Below are positions 44,015 to 48,259 of a stretch of DNA of 64,000 nt, piece after piece. The first letter of the stretch is position 1. Each line of letters opens with the position of its first letter. Made by a program: the position numbers and the translations under genes. Below the pieces are notes generated by a model. It was not told the DNA's origin and did no database searches. It was given only the letters and a program-made list of their open reading frames with translations. Source of the DNA: Escherichia phage YX22; the sequence record OR776998. The stretch is one strand, 5' to 3'.

Positions 44015-44584
44015 ATGCACATTAACACAGCAATCATGAAACACATTATTCCTTTGTTAGCAAAATACGAAGGGGAACGCGCCACGAAAATCCCTTTTGG
44101 AACAATCACCGATGAAGTGAAACGCCTGACAGGTAAAAGTATCAATTTCCGTCGCGTTATTGAATCTGCGTTAGAGTTGGCCCGTTCTGATTTACGAAAT
44201 CCAACATTTTCATTTAATATTGACATAACTTCTTCACTTCGACAAGAAATGGAAGAATCATCACAAGCGCGGCGCAATCGTTTCCGTCATTTATATGTTC
44301 GTAACGAATTCTCTGAAGGTCGTGTTGGTATGAAACTGGAGTCTATTCGTTCTGACATTTGCTTCACTGTCAACTATGTTTTAGAGCCAGAAAGCGGGCG
44401 CATTTATTTTGGTGCGATTATCGGTTTCTATGGGAACTCTATTAATGGTTGGGCAGAACGTGTTGGATTAAAAGAAACCCAGAACACTCATTCCACACCT
44501 TCTACCCATTATATGACGCATGAAGCTGCTGGCGAATATGTTTACCTTCTGCGTCGTATTGTGAAGTTAGAAGTGTTAAAATAA
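44015..44584 (+). CDS. hypothetical protein, first gene of plus-strand block
   Basis: 189 aa, GAGG SD, box-type promoter P1 upstream. Confidence 0.55.
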   Translation: MHINTAIMKHIIPLLAKYEGERATKIPFGTITDEVKRLTGKSINFRRVIESALELARSDLRNPTFSFNIDITSSLRQEMEESSQARRNRFRHLYVRNEFSEGRVGMKLESIRSDICFTVNYVLEPESGRIYFGAIIGFYGNSINGWAERVGLKETQNTHSTPSTHYMTHEAAGEYVYLLRRIVKLEVLK

Positions 44585-44641
44585 CGCTTTATTCAATAAA
44601 GAATTGCAGTAAAGTTAGTTGCATGGAAGGGAGGGAACACT

Positions 44642-44788
44642 ATGTTTTACATGATGTTACTCCTCATCCTCCTGATCGGGATTACCTTTACTCTCCTGGG
44701 TCTACCCGATCAGTCTGGTAAACAGACGCCCACTTCGGCGCATCCGGTTTTGAGTGAAGGTTCGTCCGCACTGCTGTGGGCAGTGTAG
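44642..44788 (+). CDS. small hydrophobic peptide (48 aa), absent from ORF track
   Basis: Strong SD GGAAGGGAGGG 7 nt before ATG; MFYMMLLLILLIGITFTLLGL helix. Confidence 0.4.
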   Translation: MFYMMLLLILLIGITFTLLGLPDQSGKQTPTSAHPVLSEGSSALLWAV

Positions 44789-45765
44789 CTCAAAGAGGAG
44801 AGGATTTTTCAAATTAGCTGGGCTGTAGTAAAGTATTAAACACGAGGCGAATAGCGCGGTGGTAGTAGGGCTGGAACCCGAAACCAGGAAAGCCCAGTCT
44901 CAGGGCACCGTGACGAATAGAGGCGTAATATCAACCTCGCTGGTGTCGGTGGACGCACTGACCGTCGGAGAACGAAACCCCCTGTTGTAGCGTGATTAGC
45001 TCAGATGCTTGAGAGCGCCCCGTTGGCGAGTCGACACCAACATATAGGGGAGGACGGATCTGCCAGGTTCCATCACGCCGACAACATTATGAGTCTTCGT
45101 AGAGGGTTCATAATGTTGCGTCAAAGGGCAACACAGGCTCCTGTTGGTAGAATTAACTTGATTCATAGTTCCTGCTGATCTTCCCGGATTCGAAGGAGCA
45201 CCAACAGGCGAGGCCGGATGCGTAAGTTCCGGCAAAACGATGGTGGCACCCTCGCCAACAAAATAAAAGGTTTTATCAATAACGGGTTACAAAGTATAGT
45301 TAACCCACTGAACGGCAAGCTGTTTGAGTCCTGGTCACTCATAGCGTTGTGAACTAAGACAGGTACGTTTAGGACTCAAACAGGTTTTCGTTGTGCGTGA
45401 CTTTGCGGGTTTTTAGAAACTGACCAAGCAAATAAATGCTAATGATTCCGAAGTTCTGATGGCGGCGTAATAGCCTATAAGTCAGCGGGGTATTCCAGTT
45501 CCCTGTAACAGAATCTGGCGCATCGCGGCCCTGAGATGTGATTAATAAGTCAGGGCATACAATGACAATTCATTCACATGATAACTTGTCAGCAATCTGT
45601 GAAATTGTTTGTAGGCATACGAACAAGAGGTAATTCGAGGGAGAATCGGCTCCTACCGTGTAACAGACCAAGTGACGTACCACTAAACCGTCCCGGGCGG
45701 TCGAAATGTGGGGAGATGAGAGTGGTCCCCTGAAGTTATCAGTTGAATGAATTGTTAAATAAAAT

Positions 45766-45891
45766 GCCGTTACATCTGACTGTCCAAAGGGGATAATCTC
45801 CTGAGTAAGCAGAGGTGGGTTGCCTAAGTCAGATGGGATGTAAGGTCAACGCTGGCCGAACATTTGGGTTCGACTCCCTAAAACGGCACCA
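45766..45891 (+). ncRNA. tRNA-like small RNA candidate (T-arm, 3' acceptor strand and encoded CCA, about 125 nt)
   Basis: TTGGG-TTCGACT-CCCTA T-arm followed by AAACGGC-A-CCA; 5' partner GCCGTTA about 120 nt upstream; internal 9-bp stem CATCTGACT/AGTCAGATG; too long for a canonical tRNA. Confidence 0.25.
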
Positions 45892-46772
45892 CATCTTTGA
45901 GGATATTCTCACGAGTATCTTGAAAGATGTGAGCGAAGTCTTGCCATCAGCCCTGATCCCTGGCAGGTGAAGGGCACACAAATCGAAGTGCCTTGACAAT
46001 TTATCTTAAACCCAAAGGTTGATCTACAAATTGGGCGGCCAATCCGGTGGACGATAACAGCATATTGGGCCATACTGTTGAGTCAGGGCACTTCGATTTG
46101 TGAACTTGAGAGAGCATTGGGTGAAATAGACCATGCCTTGCAGATTGCGATGCCTACACATTCCGGACACTGGTGGGCACCAAGAAGAACTCAGTAGCAG
46201 ACGAGCCATCAGGGTTAGCTACCCGGCGCGGCGAGGACTGGGAGGCCGAACTAAGGGGAAACCCGAGACAGGCGTAGTATTCTCAAGTTCACAAAATGAA
46301 GAGCATTTAAAGAGTTCGATTCTCTTTCAGGCCATTCGTGGTGTGATGTGAGTCATGAATGTTCTTCATCTTTGGGTGATTTTATGTTGCCGGGCTATCA
46401 ACCCATGCTTGCTGGAGCAACCAGCGGCTCTGAATCAACCAGCCAGCCTCGTTTGGTCCGAGCGTTAGAGGACAAGTTGCTTCTACATAGAAGCTGCGAG
46501 TTTTAACATTTGGTTGCAACTTTGATGGCTCTGGATTTTATAAACCATGTCTATGGGTGACGCGGGATCTTTAGTACCAGAGCTATCAAAGTTGTGTCCA
46601 ACCCGATCTTGCAAGCCCGTATCCCTGTATGGTTAAGACTTGCAAGTGGAAAGCCCTGGAAAAATAAACGCCTGTGGCGAGGCTATGGTGCAAGCCAAAG
46701 ACCCACAGAAGCGCATGCCGTGAGGCGCACAAACAGGCATGCATGAACTGATCATGCACAAACGGGATAAAG

Positions 46773-46801
46773 GGTTGACAGTCCTTGGTTGGTCACAATA
46801 A
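46773..46801 (+). promoter_or_regulatory. sigma70-like promoter for tRNA operon
   Basis: TTGACA, 16-nt spacer, AATAAT, ending a few nt before tRNA-Met. Confidence 0.45.
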
Positions 46802-46804
46802 TTT

Positions 46805-46878
46805 GGTCCTGTAGCTCAGTCGGTTAGAGCAGTGAACTCATAATTCATTGGTCGTTGGTTCAAATCCAACCAGGATCA
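46805..46878 (+). tRNA. tRNA-Met (anticodon CAU; initiator, elongator or Ile2-type not resolved)
   Basis: Cloverleaf read by hand: acceptor GGTCCTG/CAGGATC, D-arm GCTC..GAGC, anticodon loop CTCATAA, T-arm GTTGG-TTCAAAT-CCAAC, CCA encoded. Confidence 0.8.
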
Positions 46879-47134
46879 CCATGTTAAGGGGTGTGAAACA
46901 TAACACTCCGACAAACACAGTAAGCGTTGCAGCCAGCTGTGTATAAAATGGGGATGACTCCGCATCGGAAACGATGCCCCAACTTCCAGAAATGGTCGGG
47001 CGCAAAGCCTGTAAAGTTCCAGGAGATCGAACCAGAAGGCACTGGTCGCCAGTTAACCAATCGGCGCTGAGAAGCGCGGGGAGTTGGGCTACGGCAGATC
47101 AAATGCTCAATCGGGTGTGAAGCCCGTCCAAATT

Positions 47135-47220
47135 GGAAGGTTGCCCGAGAGGTTTAAGGGACTCGACTGCTAATCGAGTGGGGCTTTTAGCCCCCGAAGG
47201 TTCGAATCCTTCACCTTCCG
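47135..47220 (+). tRNA. tRNA-Ser (anticodon GCU)
   Basis: Acceptor GGAAGGT/ACCTTCC, anticodon stem CTCGA/TCGAG with loop CTGCTAA, long variable arm, T-arm GAAGG-TTCGAAT-CCTTC, CCA encoded. Confidence 0.8.
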
Positions 47221-47443
47221 CCAAATTACGGGCGTGACTTCCTGAAGAGTTAGAAGATGTGCATGTCGACTCTCTCTCGTAATCGGGGTGTTTAGGAAGT
47301 TAAGAAAATCGCGGCGAGGATAGTGAAATGCAAATAGCTTTCTCTACGTCGACGACTTCAGGTTCGACTCCTGACGCGCTCTCCCATAGGGTAGTACCAG
47401 TGCAAGCGTGTAGTCTTTCAACCCATCCCATCGATGTGGTGTA

Positions 47444-47476
47444 GCCGGATATCCTATCCGGCTTTCTTTTTATCCC
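47444..47476 (+). terminator. terminator closing the tRNA/RNA operon
   Basis: GCCGGATA..TATCCGGC stem then TTTCTTTTTAT. Confidence 0.6.
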
Positions 47477-47596
47477 TGTCTTATTATCTTCTTATCGACC
47501 CAAGCATGTTCTCCTTTATCGTAGTTTGTTCAATGATACAAAGGGGGTTTAAAATTTAACCGTTAACCCCCCTATCATAGATTTGAGGATACACTA

Positions 47597-48259
47597 ATGC
47601 GTAATGTTTCTATCTGGGAATTGAACGAAGTGATTTCCCATGACACCCCTCCAATTGTCAGACTCTTCCAATACAAGGGTGTCAAGCGCACTCTGAATGA
47701 GTTCCTGTCGCCTGTTTACGTCTACCGTGATGGCGGGTTCTTCCGCCGCGATAAAAACATCCCGAACCTTGGTATGACGTTTGATTTGAGTATCAAAGGC
47801 CAGGTTGTATTGATGGGTTATGGTAGCCTAGAACAATCTGAGAAAGGCCAGGGCGCTCCACTTATGGTCTTCGGTTCGTTTGAACAAGCCGTGCACTGGC
47901 TGATCAGAAACGGATATGATTTCTATGGCGAAGAAAGCGCCAATTGGCGTCGTCGCAAGGTCAAGTCTGTTAATCTGGTGGATTTGAATCTGATGTACCA
48001 GGCCATGGCTCGCGAGTACGAAAAGAATCTCGTCAAGCCTGTCGCCCAGGAGAACAATAACAATGTTGTTAACGACGCAACTGAGTCTTCTCATCATGAC
48101 GTGAACATCGTTCCAGCCTGTGAAACGAAAGCGCCGACACCGCCCACTCCTCCGGCCAGTCGTGTTCTGAATGATCAGGGCGCTCCGGTAAAACAAAAGG
48201 TCAAGAAGCCGACTTTCATGGAAAACATGATGAAGTTCCTTCGTCTGTTCAAGAAATAA
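47597..48259 (+). CDS. hypothetical protein
   Basis: 220 aa, GAGGA SD; follows tRNA operon terminator. Confidence 0.6.
   Translation: MRNVSIWELNEVISHDTPPIVRLFQYKGVKRTLNEFLSPVYVYRDGGFFRRDKNIPNLGMTFDLSIKGQVVLMGYGSLEQSEKGQGAPLMVFGSFEQAVHWLIRNGYDFYGEESANWRRRKVKSVNLVDLNLMYQAMAREYEKNLVKPVAQENNNNVVNDATESSHHDVNIVPACETKAPTPPTPPASRVLNDQGAPVKQKVKKPTFMENMMKFLRLFKK

What the first reader, a model, noticed from the sequence alone, without database searches (positions are those of the whole stretch)
44790..47480. 2.7-kb ORF-poor RNA region with only two canonical tRNAs plus orphan tRNA-like elements
Only tRNA-Met(CAU) and tRNA-Ser(GCU) fold cleanly. The rest is densely structured: an 11-bp stem CAACATTATGA/TCATAATGTTG near 45081-45118, an 11-bp stem GTTTGAGTCCT/AGGACTCAAAC near 45322-45381, and a GNRA-capped GCATCG-GAAA-CGATGC. 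There are also T-arm-like motifs without a proper acceptor partner (near 45864-45891 with encoded CCA, near 46310-46334, near 47358-47374). T4 encodes stable tRNA-like RNAs of unknown function in its tRNA cluster, so these may be similar, or may be degenerate tRNAs or tRNAs I could not fold by hand. The region has its own sigma70-like promoter (about 46773) and terminator (about 47444).
Basis: partly seen in the sequence, partly recalled or inferred. Interest (0 to 1): 0.55.

Follow-up and report, generated by a model that had tools for sequence, protein, structure and literature searches.

The report
Phage RNA island with tmRNA-like tag module
This gene-free 2.7 kb stretch of a large enterobacterial phage is a conserved array of folded RNAs: two normal tRNAs, several tRNA-like relics, and, unnoticed until now, a piece that looks like the message half of the bacterial ribosome-rescue RNA (tmRNA) and still encodes a protein-degradation tag but has no tRNA half.

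Summary
The window has only two tRNAs, Met-CAU and Ser-GCU. No ORF between 44790 and 47480 exceeds 79 aa.

The window is an Ackermannviridae phage, and the region is a conserved, plus-strand, covariation-supported array of RNA modules.

The main result is new. Positions 45384-45562 form a tmRNA-like module: a resume-codon context, a 10-codon SsrA-like tag (ANDSEVLMAA), a stop codon in a hairpin loop, and two H-type pseudoknots.
- It matches 517 phage records from several families and 137 of 5426 E. coli genomes, where it sits between Q and holin in the two prophages inspected. It is almost never annotated as an RNA.
- It is below threshold in Rfam and invisible to ARAGORN.
- Ninety distinct copies have no indel in the tag, no in-frame stop, variation mainly at third codon positions, and compensatory pairs in the pseudoknots.
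- It shares its resume context with two-piece phage tmRNAs but has no alanine-type tRNA-like domain.

Two of the three "orphan" T-arms belong to long tRNA-like RNAs (45766-45891, ending in CCA; 47230-47386). How the tag is decoded is unresolved. My best guess is a split tmRNA system.

The parts
44789..45262 (+). 5' structured domain specific to Ackermannviridae.
   Evidence: Conserved at 72-94% identity in 19 relatives. Indels that are not multiples of three rule out coding. In Kuttervirus the last hairpin carries an inserted T-arm. The fold z-score is only -1.3, so the support is comparative rather than energetic.
44990..45078 (+). tRNA-like cloverleaf without a CCA end. Acceptor GCGTGAT/ATCACGC, D-arm TAGCTCAGA..GAGAGC, and enlarged anticodon and T loops.
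   Evidence: The minimum-energy fold is a cloverleaf. The acceptor and D-arm columns are invariant in 16 relatives, and one relative has a 40-nt insertion in the D-loop. The Rfam tRNA model does not call it.
45273..45300 (+). Conserved sigma-70-like promoter (TTATCA-16-TATAGT here; TTGTCA in several relatives). It would start transcription near 45307.
   Evidence: 9 of 12 consensus matches. Nearly invariant across all aligned relatives. Function is inferred.
45311..45392 (+).
   Evidence: 22-nt arms, 86% complementary. The inner stem differs in Agtrevirus/Taipeivirus (GGGCA/TGCTC) but pairing is kept. The Rfam tmRNA_permuted model aligns it to that family's long helix.
45384..45562 (+). tmRNA-like tag-coding module without a tRNA-like domain.
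- Putative PK1: 45384-45432.
- Resume context ATAAAT: 45432-45437.
- Tag ANDSEVLMAA: 45438-45467.
- Stops TAA TAG: 45468-45473.
- Hairpin H5: 45456-45487.
- Pseudoknot PK2: 45486-45518.
- Pseudoknot PK3: 45519-45556, with the invariant loop TGTGATTAATAA.
   Evidence: - Single copy in the window (nhmmer E = 1e-40).
- 90 distinct homologues aligned.
- 91% of cells paired against 37-46% when the partner is slid; 0 of 500 shuffles reach the covariation score.
- Tag columns: 0 gaps, 0 in-frame stops, codon-position entropy 0.58/0.50/1.09.
- Sub-threshold Rfam hits to tmRNA_permuted, alpha_tmRNA and beta_tmRNA at the tag in every locus tested.
- Coordinates.
45563..45765 (+). Variable insertion closed by a 23-bp stem (45565-45587/45733-45755). 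It separates the tag module from TLE-1.
   Evidence: Present in the window's closest relatives PC3/PH4 (100% coverage), in Klebsiella phage KZag1 and partly in fGh-Ecl02. In Agtrevirus L001 the tag module and TLE-1 are only about 6 nt apart.
45766..45891 (+). TLE-1, a 126-nt tRNA-like RNA. Acceptor GCCGTT/AACGGC, no D-arm, a 9-bp long arm (45773-45781/45827-45835), a second arm, T-arm with loop TTCGACT, discriminator A, and an encoded CCA.
   Evidence: Four-way fold with z = -2.4. The module boundary falls exactly at G1 in six different upstream contexts, and the 3' end is NCCA in all copies with the discriminator A or T. The 3:70 pair is C-G, not G-U. Absent from Det7, EspM4VN and SKML-39.
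45890..46375 (+). Series of long hairpin cassettes: 45890-45931, 45977-46102, 46088-46304, and 46296-46369. The last is a lambda-type A/A' stem (ATGAAGAGCATT / AATGTTCTTCAT) carrying the orphan T-arm at 46310.
   Evidence: Inverted repeats. RNAalifold finds 17 of 72 pairs with compensatory changes. The stem and cargo types are shared with lambdoid late leaders.
46375..46790 (+). Conserved structured block, including the 25-bp stem at 46510-46534/46577-46601. It is retained even in the Dickeya phage LIMEstone1.
   Evidence: The parent stretch 45890-46790 folds with z = -7.9. 18 of 94 pairs show compensatory changes across 12 relatives.
46775..46802 (+). Strong sigma-70-type promoter for the tRNA unit.
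   Evidence: TTGACA-16-AATAAT, 11 of 12 matches.
46805..46881 (+). tRNA-Met(CAU); it could also be Ile2.
   Evidence: ARAGORN and Rfam at 73.4 bits.
46882..47134 (+). Conserved structured spacer with the GNRA hairpin at 46962-46977. Positions 46890-46911 replace the Trp-Asn-Tyr tRNA block of relatives.
   Evidence: Collinear with L001 and L003 at 96-98% identity, except for a 417-nt block missing here.
47135..47223 (+). tRNA-Ser(GCU).
   Evidence: ARAGORN and Rfam at 56 bits.
47230..47386 (+). TLE-2, a 157-nt tRNA-like RNA with the same layout as TLE-1. Acceptor GGGCGTG/CGCGCTC, two long arms, T-arm at 47358-47374, then T-CCCA.
   Evidence: The fold is a four-way junction (started 2 nt late). 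PhaxI has GAGTGTG/CGCACTC and T-stem TCGGG/CCCGA, which are compensatory changes at 2:71, 4:69 and in the T-stem.
47443..47463 (+). Intrinsic terminator that ends the RNA island.
   Evidence: 9-bp stem followed by a T-run.

Best explanation
**What it is (shown)**

The region is an RNA-gene island of an Ackermannviridae phage. It is transcribed left to right and consists of self-folding modules exchanged by recombination among enterobacterial phages. The modules are:
- two working tRNAs;
- three tRNA-derived RNAs;
- many long hairpin cassettes of the type found in lambdoid late leaders;
- one 180-nt module (45384-45562) derived from the coding piece of a two-piece tmRNA.

The tmRNA-like module keeps the resume-codon context, a 10-codon SsrA-type degradation tag ending in Ala-Ala, a stop codon presented in a hairpin loop, and two H-type pseudoknots. 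It has lost the alanine-accepting tRNA-like domain.

**How it most likely works (inferred)**

The tag frame shows the signature of selection as a coding sequence, so ribosomes very probably read it. It has no start codon or Shine-Dalgarno sequence, so reading must begin as in trans-translation, on a stalled ribosome. The acceptor function would then come from another molecule. In this phage that could be the CCA-ended tRNA-like RNA TLE-1 just downstream. More generally it could be the host tmRNA-SmpB machinery. The result would be nascent chains carrying a phage-specified tag.

The surrounding hairpins and tRNA-like elements probably serve as processing signals (RNase P or RNase III) and stabilisers that release the individual RNAs.
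For: **Identity and context**
- The window matches Ackermannviridae phages. The region is conserved and unannotated, or spuriously annotated, in all of them.
- RNA-level selection is seen in + strand fold bias, z = -7.9 and compensatory pairs.

**Tag module**
- 18 tag variants, all exactly 10 codons plus a stop.
- 0 gaps in 33 columns across 90 sequences. Codons 1-3 and 10 vary only at the third position. Frame 0 has no internal stops, against 86 and 72 sequences with stops in the other two frames. The stop is TAA, TAG or TGA.
- H5, PK2 and PK3 are supported by covariation.
- Rfam tmRNA_permuted, alpha_tmRNA and beta_tmRNA give weak hits at the same place in the window and all eight other loci tested.
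- The 16-nt resume context TAAATGCAAACGAYGA, carried by most homologues of the module, occurs in 44 ARAGORN-verified two-piece tmRNAs on IMG/VR contigs. These are followed by the same layout of H5 plus an A-rich-loop pseudoknot. The window's own copy differs from this motif at two wobble positions.

**Self-contained unit**
- The module often starts right after a promoter or terminator.

**Spread**
- 517 phage records and 137 E. coli genomes, between Q and holin in the two prophages inspected.

**TLE-1**
- It is a discrete CCA-ended module placed immediately after the tag module in Agtrevirus.
Against: **No tRNA-like domain found**
- ARAGORN finds no tmRNA in 127 loci.
- No G3-U70 acceptor was found near the module.
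- TLE-1 has C3-G70 and a variable discriminator. It is missing in Det7, EspM4VN and SKML-39, which keep intact tag modules.
- Only 41 of 97 contexts have any TLE-type domain within 800 nt downstream.

**No other link to trans-translation**
- No SmpB gene in the window.
- No special complementarity to E. coli ssrA.
- Profiles built from canonical two-piece phage tmRNAs do not hit the window, so homology rests on short motifs, weak covariance-model hits and shared architecture.
- No known mechanism lets a message-only RNA enter a stalled ribosome.

**Weaker parts of the structure**
- PK1 is poorly supported.
- No expression data were available.
Confidence: 0.6

Rival explanations
1. Decoy or sponge. 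The module mimics the body of tmRNA (message region plus pseudoknots) in order to bind host factors that recognise it, such as ribosomal protein S1, RNase R or SmpB-ribosome complexes. This would dampen or redirect host ribosome rescue, or protect phage transcripts. The tag is never translated.
For: - No tRNA-like domain and no SmpB gene.
- The invariant PK3 loop TGTGATTAATAA and other invariant single-stranded runs look like protein-binding sites.
- The module is self-contained.
- A mirror-image precedent exists: the DS6A mycobacteriophage tmRNA fragment, which has only the tRNA-like domain, was proposed to titrate SmpB (PMC4131195).
Against: A decoy does not need an open frame. The data show strict absence of indels and stops, third-position-only variation, and Ala-Ala (or Val-Ala, Ser-Ala) termini across 18 tag variants. 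These point to translation.
Confidence: 0.17
2. Structural or processing leader. The whole array, including the tag module, serves only to make a long untranslated transcript stable and resistant to Rho and RNases, and to punctuate it for tRNA release. The tag module is an exapted fossil of a phage tmRNA.
For: - The same hairpin cassettes fill lambdoid late leaders between Q and holin.
- Stable Hfq-bound sRNAs are known from that neighbourhood (Pas sRNA preprint; P22E).
- Cargo is exchangeable.
- The module is absent from LIMEstone1.
Against: A fossil would lose its reading frame. Instead the frame persists in 90 distinct copies spread over at least five phage lineages. The module is retained as an intact unit while its flanks are reshuffled.
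Confidence: 0.13
3. tRNA graveyard. The region is decaying debris of tRNA and tmRNA genes, left by recombination and homing-endonuclease traffic in the tRNA cluster, and has no present function.
For: - Relatives gain and lose whole tRNAs and carry HNH endonuclease genes here.
- Truncated tRNA 3' halves occur at module junctions in other phages (L110).
- T-arm fragments are frequent.
Against: - 72-94% conservation across genera, with compensatory changes.
- Strand-specific folding.
- Coding constraint on the tag.
- Module boundaries fall precisely at structural ends.
Confidence: 0.05
4. Small proteins. The short ORFs that some relatives annotate in this region (up to 79 aa here) are the real genes.
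For: Some records annotate 2-10 hypothetical proteins here, on either strand.
Against: The annotations disagree between genomes. 1-nt indels break the ORFs. Nothing longer than 79 aa is present. The structure signal is on the + strand, whereas many of the annotated ORFs are on the - strand.
Confidence: 0.03

Closest known systems
Coding piece of two-piece (circularly permuted) tmRNA. Rfam RF04321 tmRNA_permuted, RF01850 beta_tmRNA, RF01849 alpha_tmRNA. Phage examples include the marine myophage Melnitz and the IMG/VR contigs L264-L352.
   Same: - The same resume context (UAAAU-GCA AAC GAY GA).
- A 10-codon ANDxxxxxAA tag with the stop in a hairpin loop, followed by an H-type pseudoknot with an A-rich third loop.
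- A long helix immediately upstream.
- Weak but reproducible covariance-model hits.
   Different: - No 5' acceptor strand (GGGGCUG) and no upstream acceptor piece (GGAC, T-arm, CAGCUCC-ACCA).
- An extra pseudoknot (PK3) with an invariant loop.
- Found in enterobacterial rather than marine or aquatic phages.
Canonical one-piece tmRNA (SsrA, Rfam RF00023) acting with SmpB.
   Same: The order PK1, message, H5, then pseudoknots. The tag resembles E. coli ANDENYALAA. AUA lies at -6 to -4 before the resume codon (the E. coli comparison is from memory; the sequence itself is).
   Different: No tRNA-like domain, no G3-U70, no helix 2 closing the ring, and two rather than three downstream pseudoknots. 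There is no RF00023 hit in the window and no sequence similarity to host ssrA.
Mycobacteriophage DS6A tmRNA fragment that has only the tRNA-like domain (PMC4131195).
   Same: A phage carries only one half of a tmRNA.
   Different: It is the opposite half. DS6A keeps the tRNA-like domain and lacks the message. Here the message and pseudoknots are kept and the tRNA-like domain is missing.
T4 stable RNAs species 1 and 2 in the T4 tRNA cluster (from my own knowledge; no sequences were compared).
   Same: tRNA-like, CCA-ended RNAs of 120-140 nt and unknown function, encoded among phage tRNAs. TLE-1 and TLE-2 fit that description.
   Different: No homology was tested. TLE-1 and TLE-2 lack a D-arm and carry two long extra arms. 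The T4 RNAs are not linked to a tag-coding module.
Large ornate phage-associated ncRNAs found next to tRNAs (GOLLD RF01998, ROOL RF03087).
   Same: Long ORF-free, highly structured RNA beside phage tRNA genes.
   Different: No Rfam match even at E = 10. The region is a chain of independent, exchangeable hairpin modules rather than one large fold.
Lambdoid late-leader RNAs, namely the region between Q/tR' and holin, including the Pas sRNAs (bioRxiv 10.64898/2026.05.13.724894) and P22E (PMC13397905).
   Same: The same hairpin-cassette family and the same tag module occur there. Stable sRNAs are known from that neighbourhood.
   Different: Those papers do not mention a tmRNA-like element, tag or pseudoknots. 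In the window the array lies in a tRNA cluster of a virulent myophage.

Membership tests
tRNA (RF00005) | Cloverleaf scoring above the Rfam gathering threshold, with an anticodon. | tested here: met
   Met for 46805-46881 (73.4 bits) and 47135-47223 (56 bits) only. No other tRNA hit even at E = 10.
tmRNA (one-piece, RF00023) | tRNA-like domain: acceptor stem with G3-U70, T-arm, and a 3' ACCA. | tested here: not met
   No RF00023 hit in the window. ARAGORN is negative. TLE-1 has C3-G70 and TLE-2 has G2-U71.
tmRNA (one-piece, RF00023) | Message region: a resume codon without a start codon or Shine-Dalgarno sequence, a short tag ending in hydrophobic Ala-Ala, and a stop in the helix-5 loop. | tested here: met
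   ANDSEVLMAA followed by TAA TAG at 45438-45473. Coding constraint across 90 copies. H5 covaries.
tmRNA (one-piece, RF00023) | Pseudoknots flanking the message (PK1 upstream, PK2-4 downstream). | tested here: inconclusive
   Two downstream H-type pseudoknots are strongly supported. PK1 is only weakly supported: stem 1 is 68% paired and stem 2 is 89% paired with one compensatory pair.
tmRNA (one-piece, RF00023) | Works with SmpB and is charged by AlaRS. | not testable with these tools
   No SmpB homologue in the window. Charging and binding need experiments.
Two-piece tmRNA (RF04321, RF01850, RF01849) | Score above the gathering threshold. | tested here: not met
   24 bits against 47 for RF04321, and 19.3 against 50 for RF01849, in the window. 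Results are similar in relatives.
Two-piece tmRNA (RF04321, RF01850, RF01849) | An acceptor piece (T-arm, acceptor 3' strand, CCA) upstream, and a coding piece that begins with the acceptor 5' strand. | tested here: not met
   Verified phage examples have GGAC, a T-arm and CAGCTCCACCA, plus GGGGCTGA..TTCGAC. Neither is present in the window nor next to the cores.
Two-piece tmRNA (RF04321, RF01850, RF01849) | Resume-codon context and tag of the family. | tested here: met
   TAAATGCAAACGAYGA is shared between most cores and 44 ARAGORN-called permuted tmRNAs. The window copy reads TAAATGCTAATGATTC: its first three codons differ from the motif only at synonymous third positions, and its fourth codon (TCC) departs from the motif's GA.
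T4-type stable tRNA-like RNAs | Discrete RNA in a phage tRNA cluster with an acceptor stem, a T-arm and a CCA end, and no anticodon function. | tested here: inconclusive
   TLE-1 fits on sequence and structure. TLE-2 ends in T-CCCA. Stability, processing and homology to the T4 RNAs were not tested.
GOLLD / ROOL and other Rfam ncRNAs | A covariance-model match. | tested here: not met
   No hit at E up to 10 in 44500-47600.

The most novel reading that the evidence does not exclude
Enterobacterial phages and prophages carry a stand-alone message half of tmRNA. It is loaded onto stalled ribosomes without being covalently joined to an alanine-accepting tRNA-like domain. Loading could occur through a phage tRNA-like RNA such as TLE-1, or by piggy-backing on the host SmpB-tmRNA. 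In either case the phage would rewrite the tag that the host's ribosome-rescue system adds to proteins. This would be a split, or trans-acting, form of trans-translation not described before.
Probability: 0.3. Interest if true: 0.92.

Novelty: new variant of a known kind. Interest (0 to 1): 0.8.

Why it matters
**A widespread, unrecognised RNA family**
- tmRNA is regarded as a single RNA, or two base-paired pieces, whose tRNA half and message half must act together.
- This family keeps only the message half, yet still evolves like a translated sequence.
- It matches about 1% of sequenced phage records and 2.5% of complete E. coli genomes.
- Neither ARAGORN nor Rfam detects it, and genome pipelines do not annotate it as an RNA.

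**If it is translated**
- Phages can choose the degradation tag placed on proteins from stalled ribosomes.
- That bears on abortive-infection toxins that cut mRNAs, on lysis timing in lambdoid phages (the module sits in the late leader), and on Ackermannviridae phages that are characterised for biocontrol and therapy.

**If it is a decoy**
- It would be a new anti-rescue strategy.

**In either case**
- It gives a function-bearing landmark for the long "empty" leaders of lambdoid late operons and for phage tRNA islands.
- It is directly testable with tag-variant mass spectrometry.

Tried and rejected
1. **ARAGORN**, including tmRNA mode, on the window and 127 loci found no tmRNA.
2. **Rfam** at gathering threshold and at E = 10 gave only two tRNAs plus sub-threshold permuted-tmRNA hits. 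GOLLD, ROOL and similar families did not match.
3. **A linked tRNA-like domain** was sought by scanning ±900 nt around every core for a T-arm followed by 7 nt and NCCA. This found only ordinary tRNAs and TLE-1. TLE-type domains occur in 41 of 97 contexts.
4. **TLE-1 as an obligatory partner** is rejected, because Det7, EspM4VN and SKML-39 lack it.
5. **Strand swap between TLE-1's CUGACU/AGUCAG arm and the core's CUGACC...GUCAG** is rejected. Phages that have TLE-1 but the CCAG-type H5 lack the required complementarity.
6. **A long-range helix between AACGGC (45312) and GCCGTT (45766)** is not conserved in Agtrevirus.
7. **A pseudoknotted acceptor in the style of plant-virus tRNA-like structures**, with PK3 followed by CCA, is rejected. 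The bases after PK3 vary (ACACA, ACCCA, GACAA and others) and the PK3 stem length varies.
8. **Nested pairing of the repeated A/A' stems to recreate a tmRNA ring** is rejected. The T-arm cargo has no consistent position, and cores often lack an upstream hairpin altogether.
9. **Base-pairing with host tmRNA** gave RNAduplex z-scores near 0. The first attempt timed out.
10. **An SmpB gene in the window** was not found.
11. **nhmmer profiles of canonical two-piece phage tmRNA parts** against the window gave nothing significant. My by-eye similarities between TLE-1, or the core's 5' end, and tmRNA tRNA-like-domain or helix-2 sequences therefore remain unproven leads.
12. **An alternative small ORF from the overlapping ATG** is rejected. 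The ATG is not conserved and the peptides differ in length.
Only one true hit was seen.
14. **Literature searches** for a phage message-only tmRNA, for the tag sequences, or for Ackermannviridae tmRNA found nothing relevant. One search was wasted on terms that were too broad.

Full report
**1. Observation**

ARAGORN and Rfam find exactly two tRNAs in the 64 kb window: Met(CAT) at 46805-46881 and Ser(GCT) at 47135-47223. Between 44790 and 47480 no ORF exceeds 79 aa.
- The 11-bp stem lies at 45082-45092/45108-45118.
- The second stem lies inside the arm pair 45311-45332/45371-45392.
- The GNRA hairpin is at 46962-46977.
- T-arm-like hairpins on the + strand cluster at 45864, 46310 and 47358, alongside the two real tRNAs.
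- The promoter TTGACA-16-AATAAT is at 46775-46802 and the terminator at 47443-47463.

The structure is more than chance. The stretch 45890-46790 folds with z = -7.9. Every module is more stable on the + strand than on the - strand, by 72 kcal/mol over 2 kb.

**2. Context**

The window belongs to an Ackermannviridae phage; the best matches are Escherichia phages PC3 and PH4 at 95.6% identity. In every relative inspected, the same 2 kb or so between a 48-aa ORF and tRNA-Met is unannotated or carries inconsistent short "hypothetical proteins".
- The extra tRNAs of relatives (Trp, Asn, Tyr, Ile) lie between Met and Ser. The window simply lacks a 417-nt block there, and the remaining spacer is conserved.
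- A block map shows three regions. Positions 44600-45500 are conserved throughout the family. Positions 45500-45750 are a variable insertion. The rest is conserved but module swaps occur.
- Alignments of three sub-regions show indels that are not multiples of three.
- They also show many compensatory pairs: 18 of 94 and 17 of 72.

The region is therefore structured RNA under selection. It is neither coding sequence nor junk.

**3. The unexpected element**

A permissive Rfam scan gave weak hits to permuted tmRNA families at 45327-45522. The sequence there reads GCT AAT GAT TCC GAA GTT CTG ATG GCG GCG TAA TAG, which translates to ANDSEVLMAA followed by two stops. This is an SsrA-like tag.

*Distribution.* BLAST showed that this 180-nt piece, alone out of the region, is shared with unrelated phages, always in intergenic gaps.
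- Examples are Deseoctovirus DS8, Schitoviridae (Pollock, FSL SP-076) and Chaseviridae (phiEcoM-GJ1).
- A lambdoid copy used as query matches 517 of 50,697 phage records.
- The window copy matches 137 of 5426 complete E. coli genomes, never annotated.
- In the two prophages inspected it lies between the Q antiterminator and the holin gene.

*Coding signature.* A pattern scan of IMG/VR supplied more copies, and I aligned 90 distinct sequences.
- All have exactly ten codons plus a stop, in 18 variants of AN[DE]xxx[LR]x[AVS]A.
- The 33 tag columns contain no gap.
- Codons 1, 2, 3 and 10 vary only at the third position.
- Mean entropy by codon position is 0.58, 0.50 and 1.09.
- The tag frame never contains a stop, whereas the other two frames do in 86 and 72 sequences.
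- The terminator codon is TAA (87), TAG (2) or TGA (1).

*Structure.* Downstream, a hairpin presents the stop codon in its loop and two H-type pseudoknots follow.
- On the 37 pairs tested, 91% of cells pair, against 37-46% when partners are slid.
- The covariation score is 0.237 against 0.115 in shuffles, with 0 of 500 shuffles reaching it.
- Several pairs show three or four pair types.
- PK1, upstream of the tag, is only weakly supported.

The module occurs once in the window (nhmmer E = 1e-40).

**4. Relation to real tmRNAs**

Scanning IMG/VR for the resume context TAAATGCAAACGAYGA, which most homologues carry (the window copy differs at two wobble positions), returned 98 new loci. Of these, 44 are ARAGORN-called permuted (two-piece) tmRNAs with tags such as ANDEQFALAA and ANDERFALAA.
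- Their anatomy is an acceptor piece (GGAC, T-arm, CAGCTCC-ACCA), a spacer, then a coding piece. The coding piece runs GGGGCTGA..TTCGAC, helix, resume context, tag, hairpin, A-rich-loop pseudoknot, terminator.
- The enterobacterial module matches the tag-proximal part of that coding piece in motif and layout.
- It lacks both acceptor strands and the T-arm. ARAGORN finds nothing in 127 loci.
- Profiles of the canonical parts do not hit the window.
- The module frequently begins directly after a sigma-70 promoter (DS8-like phages) or a tR' terminator, so it is a self-contained unit.

A survey of 18,146 phage genomes with ARAGORN found 402 tmRNA-bearing phages. Fifty-three of these had two-piece tmRNAs, and 50 of those were marine or aquatic (PMC9004378). 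An earlier exhaustive search listed phage ssrA only in mycobacteriophages and Bacillus phage G (PMC4131195). I found no paper describing this family.

**5. tRNA-like elements**

*TLE-1 (45766-45891)* folds as a four-way junction: acceptor GCCGTT/AACGGC, a 9-bp arm, a second arm, a T-arm, then A-CCA.
- In 14 relatives it is nearly invariant.
- It starts exactly at G1 although six different sequences precede it.
- It always ends in NCCA.
- In Agtrevirus it follows the tag module after about 6 nt.
- It has C3-G70, so it is not an alanine-type acceptor.
- It is absent from Det7, EspM4VN and SKML-39, which keep intact tag modules.

*TLE-2 (47230-47386)* has the same layout, and its acceptor and T-stem covary with PhaxI.

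*A CCA-less cloverleaf* lies at 44990-45078.

*The third orphan T-arm (46310)* is the cargo of a hairpin whose stem (ATGAAGAGCATT / AATGTTCTTCAT) belongs to the family CACAACAGGTAAGAGCATT...AGTGCTCTTTCCGTTGTG. That family is repeated in lambdoid late leaders and DS8-like phages, where it flanks exchangeable cargo.

**6. How it most likely works**

*Shown:*
- a conserved, + strand, modular RNA array;
- a tag frame under coding-type constraint;
- pseudoknots under structural constraint;
- no linked alanine-type tRNA-like domain, and no SmpB gene in the window.

*Inferred:* ribosomes read the tag by a trans-translation-like entry, with the acceptor function supplied in trans. TLE-1 is the local candidate, and the host SmpB-tmRNA machinery is the general one. 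The hairpins and tRNA-like elements act as processing and stability signals.

*Against:*
- there is no universal partner;
- there is no complementarity to host ssrA;
- there is no precedent for a message-only template.

The rivals are a decoy for tmRNA-binding factors, a purely structural leader, or debris. They explain the missing tRNA-like domain but not the preserved reading frame.

**7. Verdict**

It is a new variant of a known kind: a tmRNA-derived, tag-coding RNA without a tRNA-like domain, embedded in a phage RNA-gene island together with novel long tRNA-like RNAs. The identity of the parts is well supported. The mechanism is open and directly testable.

Noticed in passing
L128 3400-3860; L011-L014 and other IMG/VR prophage loci; window 46296-46369: Lambdoid late leaders (between tR' and holin) are built from repeated long hairpins with conserved stems, CACAACAGGTAAGAGCATT...AGTGCTCTTTCCGTTGTG, and exchangeable cargo that is often a T-arm-like hairpin. 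From memory, phage lambda itself has one such hairpin. The same stem and cargo types occur in DS8-like siphoviruses and in this Ackermannviridae window.
   Followed up: partly
L261, L263, L280, L281, L321, L328, L330, L337, L340, L353, L354, L356: A sister family of the tag module (tag ANDDLMMVAA). Its pseudoknot sequences and PK3 loop (TGTATTAGGGA) differ. It sits directly after a tR'-like terminator in prophage contigs, and ARAGORN does not call it either.
   Followed up: no
L268, L350, L355 (IMG/VR contig, about 50 kb): A tRNA-type 3' end (TATAGGTTCGAGTCCTATACGGAGTGCCA) is followed about 55 nt later by a tag frame ANDDSFEVARLAA. This arrangement resembles an acceptor piece followed by a coding piece, but ARAGORN does not call it a tmRNA.
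   Followed up: no
L128 3723-3854; L103, L098, L040: A 136-nt tRNA-like domain with acceptor TGTGGTG/CGCCACA, a normal D-arm, a 55-nt arm in place of the anticodon arm, a variable arm, and the T-arm GCCGGTTCGATTCCGGC. Its 3' part resembles the tmRNA 3' domain (RF00023, 20 bits). It ends in ACCC, or ACCA in L040, and lies about 80-230 nt downstream of the tag module in some lambdoid and DS8-like phages. By my recollection, lambda has a T-loop-less version closed by GTTGTGCTG...CAGCACAAC.
   Followed up: partly
L103, L108 (DS8-like siphoviruses): A compact transcription unit of about 700 nt: sigma-70 promoter, tag module, hairpin cassette, tRNA-like domain, another hairpin, tRNA-Met(CAT), terminator. 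In Ackermannviridae the first tRNA after the array is also Met(CAT).
   Followed up: partly
window 46890-46911 compared with L001 3508-3924: There is a clean 417-nt presence/absence difference. The Agtrevirus relative carries tRNA-Trp, tRNA-Asn and tRNA-Tyr where the window has 22 nt.
   Followed up: yes
L002, L021, L034, L063, L080, L121, L132, L134, L137, compared with window 45212-45257: Many relatives (mostly Kuttervirus; also the Agtrevirus SKML-39) carry a 55-nt insertion ending in a T-arm (GTGTGGTTCGATTCCGCAC) inside the GGCGAGG...CCCTCGCC hairpin of the 5' domain. The T-arm sits immediately 5' of the 3' stem strand, with tRNA-like polarity.
   Followed up: no
L133 3070-3483 (CBA120 orf221); L002 3924-4565 (PhaxI): HNH/homing endonuclease genes are inserted immediately upstream of, and overlapping, tRNA-Met in some relatives. 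The window has none there. This probably drives the module turnover.
   Followed up: no
window 44642-44788: A 48-aa hydrophobic ORF (MFYMMLLLILLIGITFTLLGL...) ends right where the RNA island begins. It is annotated as hypothetical in relatives, and it and the 189-aa ORF upstream are on the same strand as the array.
   Followed up: no
L002 5966-6051 (PhaxI 'tRNA-OTHER'): Between tRNA-Ser and TLE-2, PhaxI carries another tRNA-like gene with a normal acceptor, D-arm and T-arm. Its anticodon region is enlarged and it ends in ATCA. The window has no counterpart.
   Followed up: no
L006, L074 (phiEcoM-GJ1-like Chaseviridae): This is the most divergent tag module (tag ANDSEMRVAA). Its upstream part is about 30 nt longer and it is preceded by a perfect 10-bp hairpin in L074. 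It would be useful as an outgroup for defining PK1.
   Followed up: no
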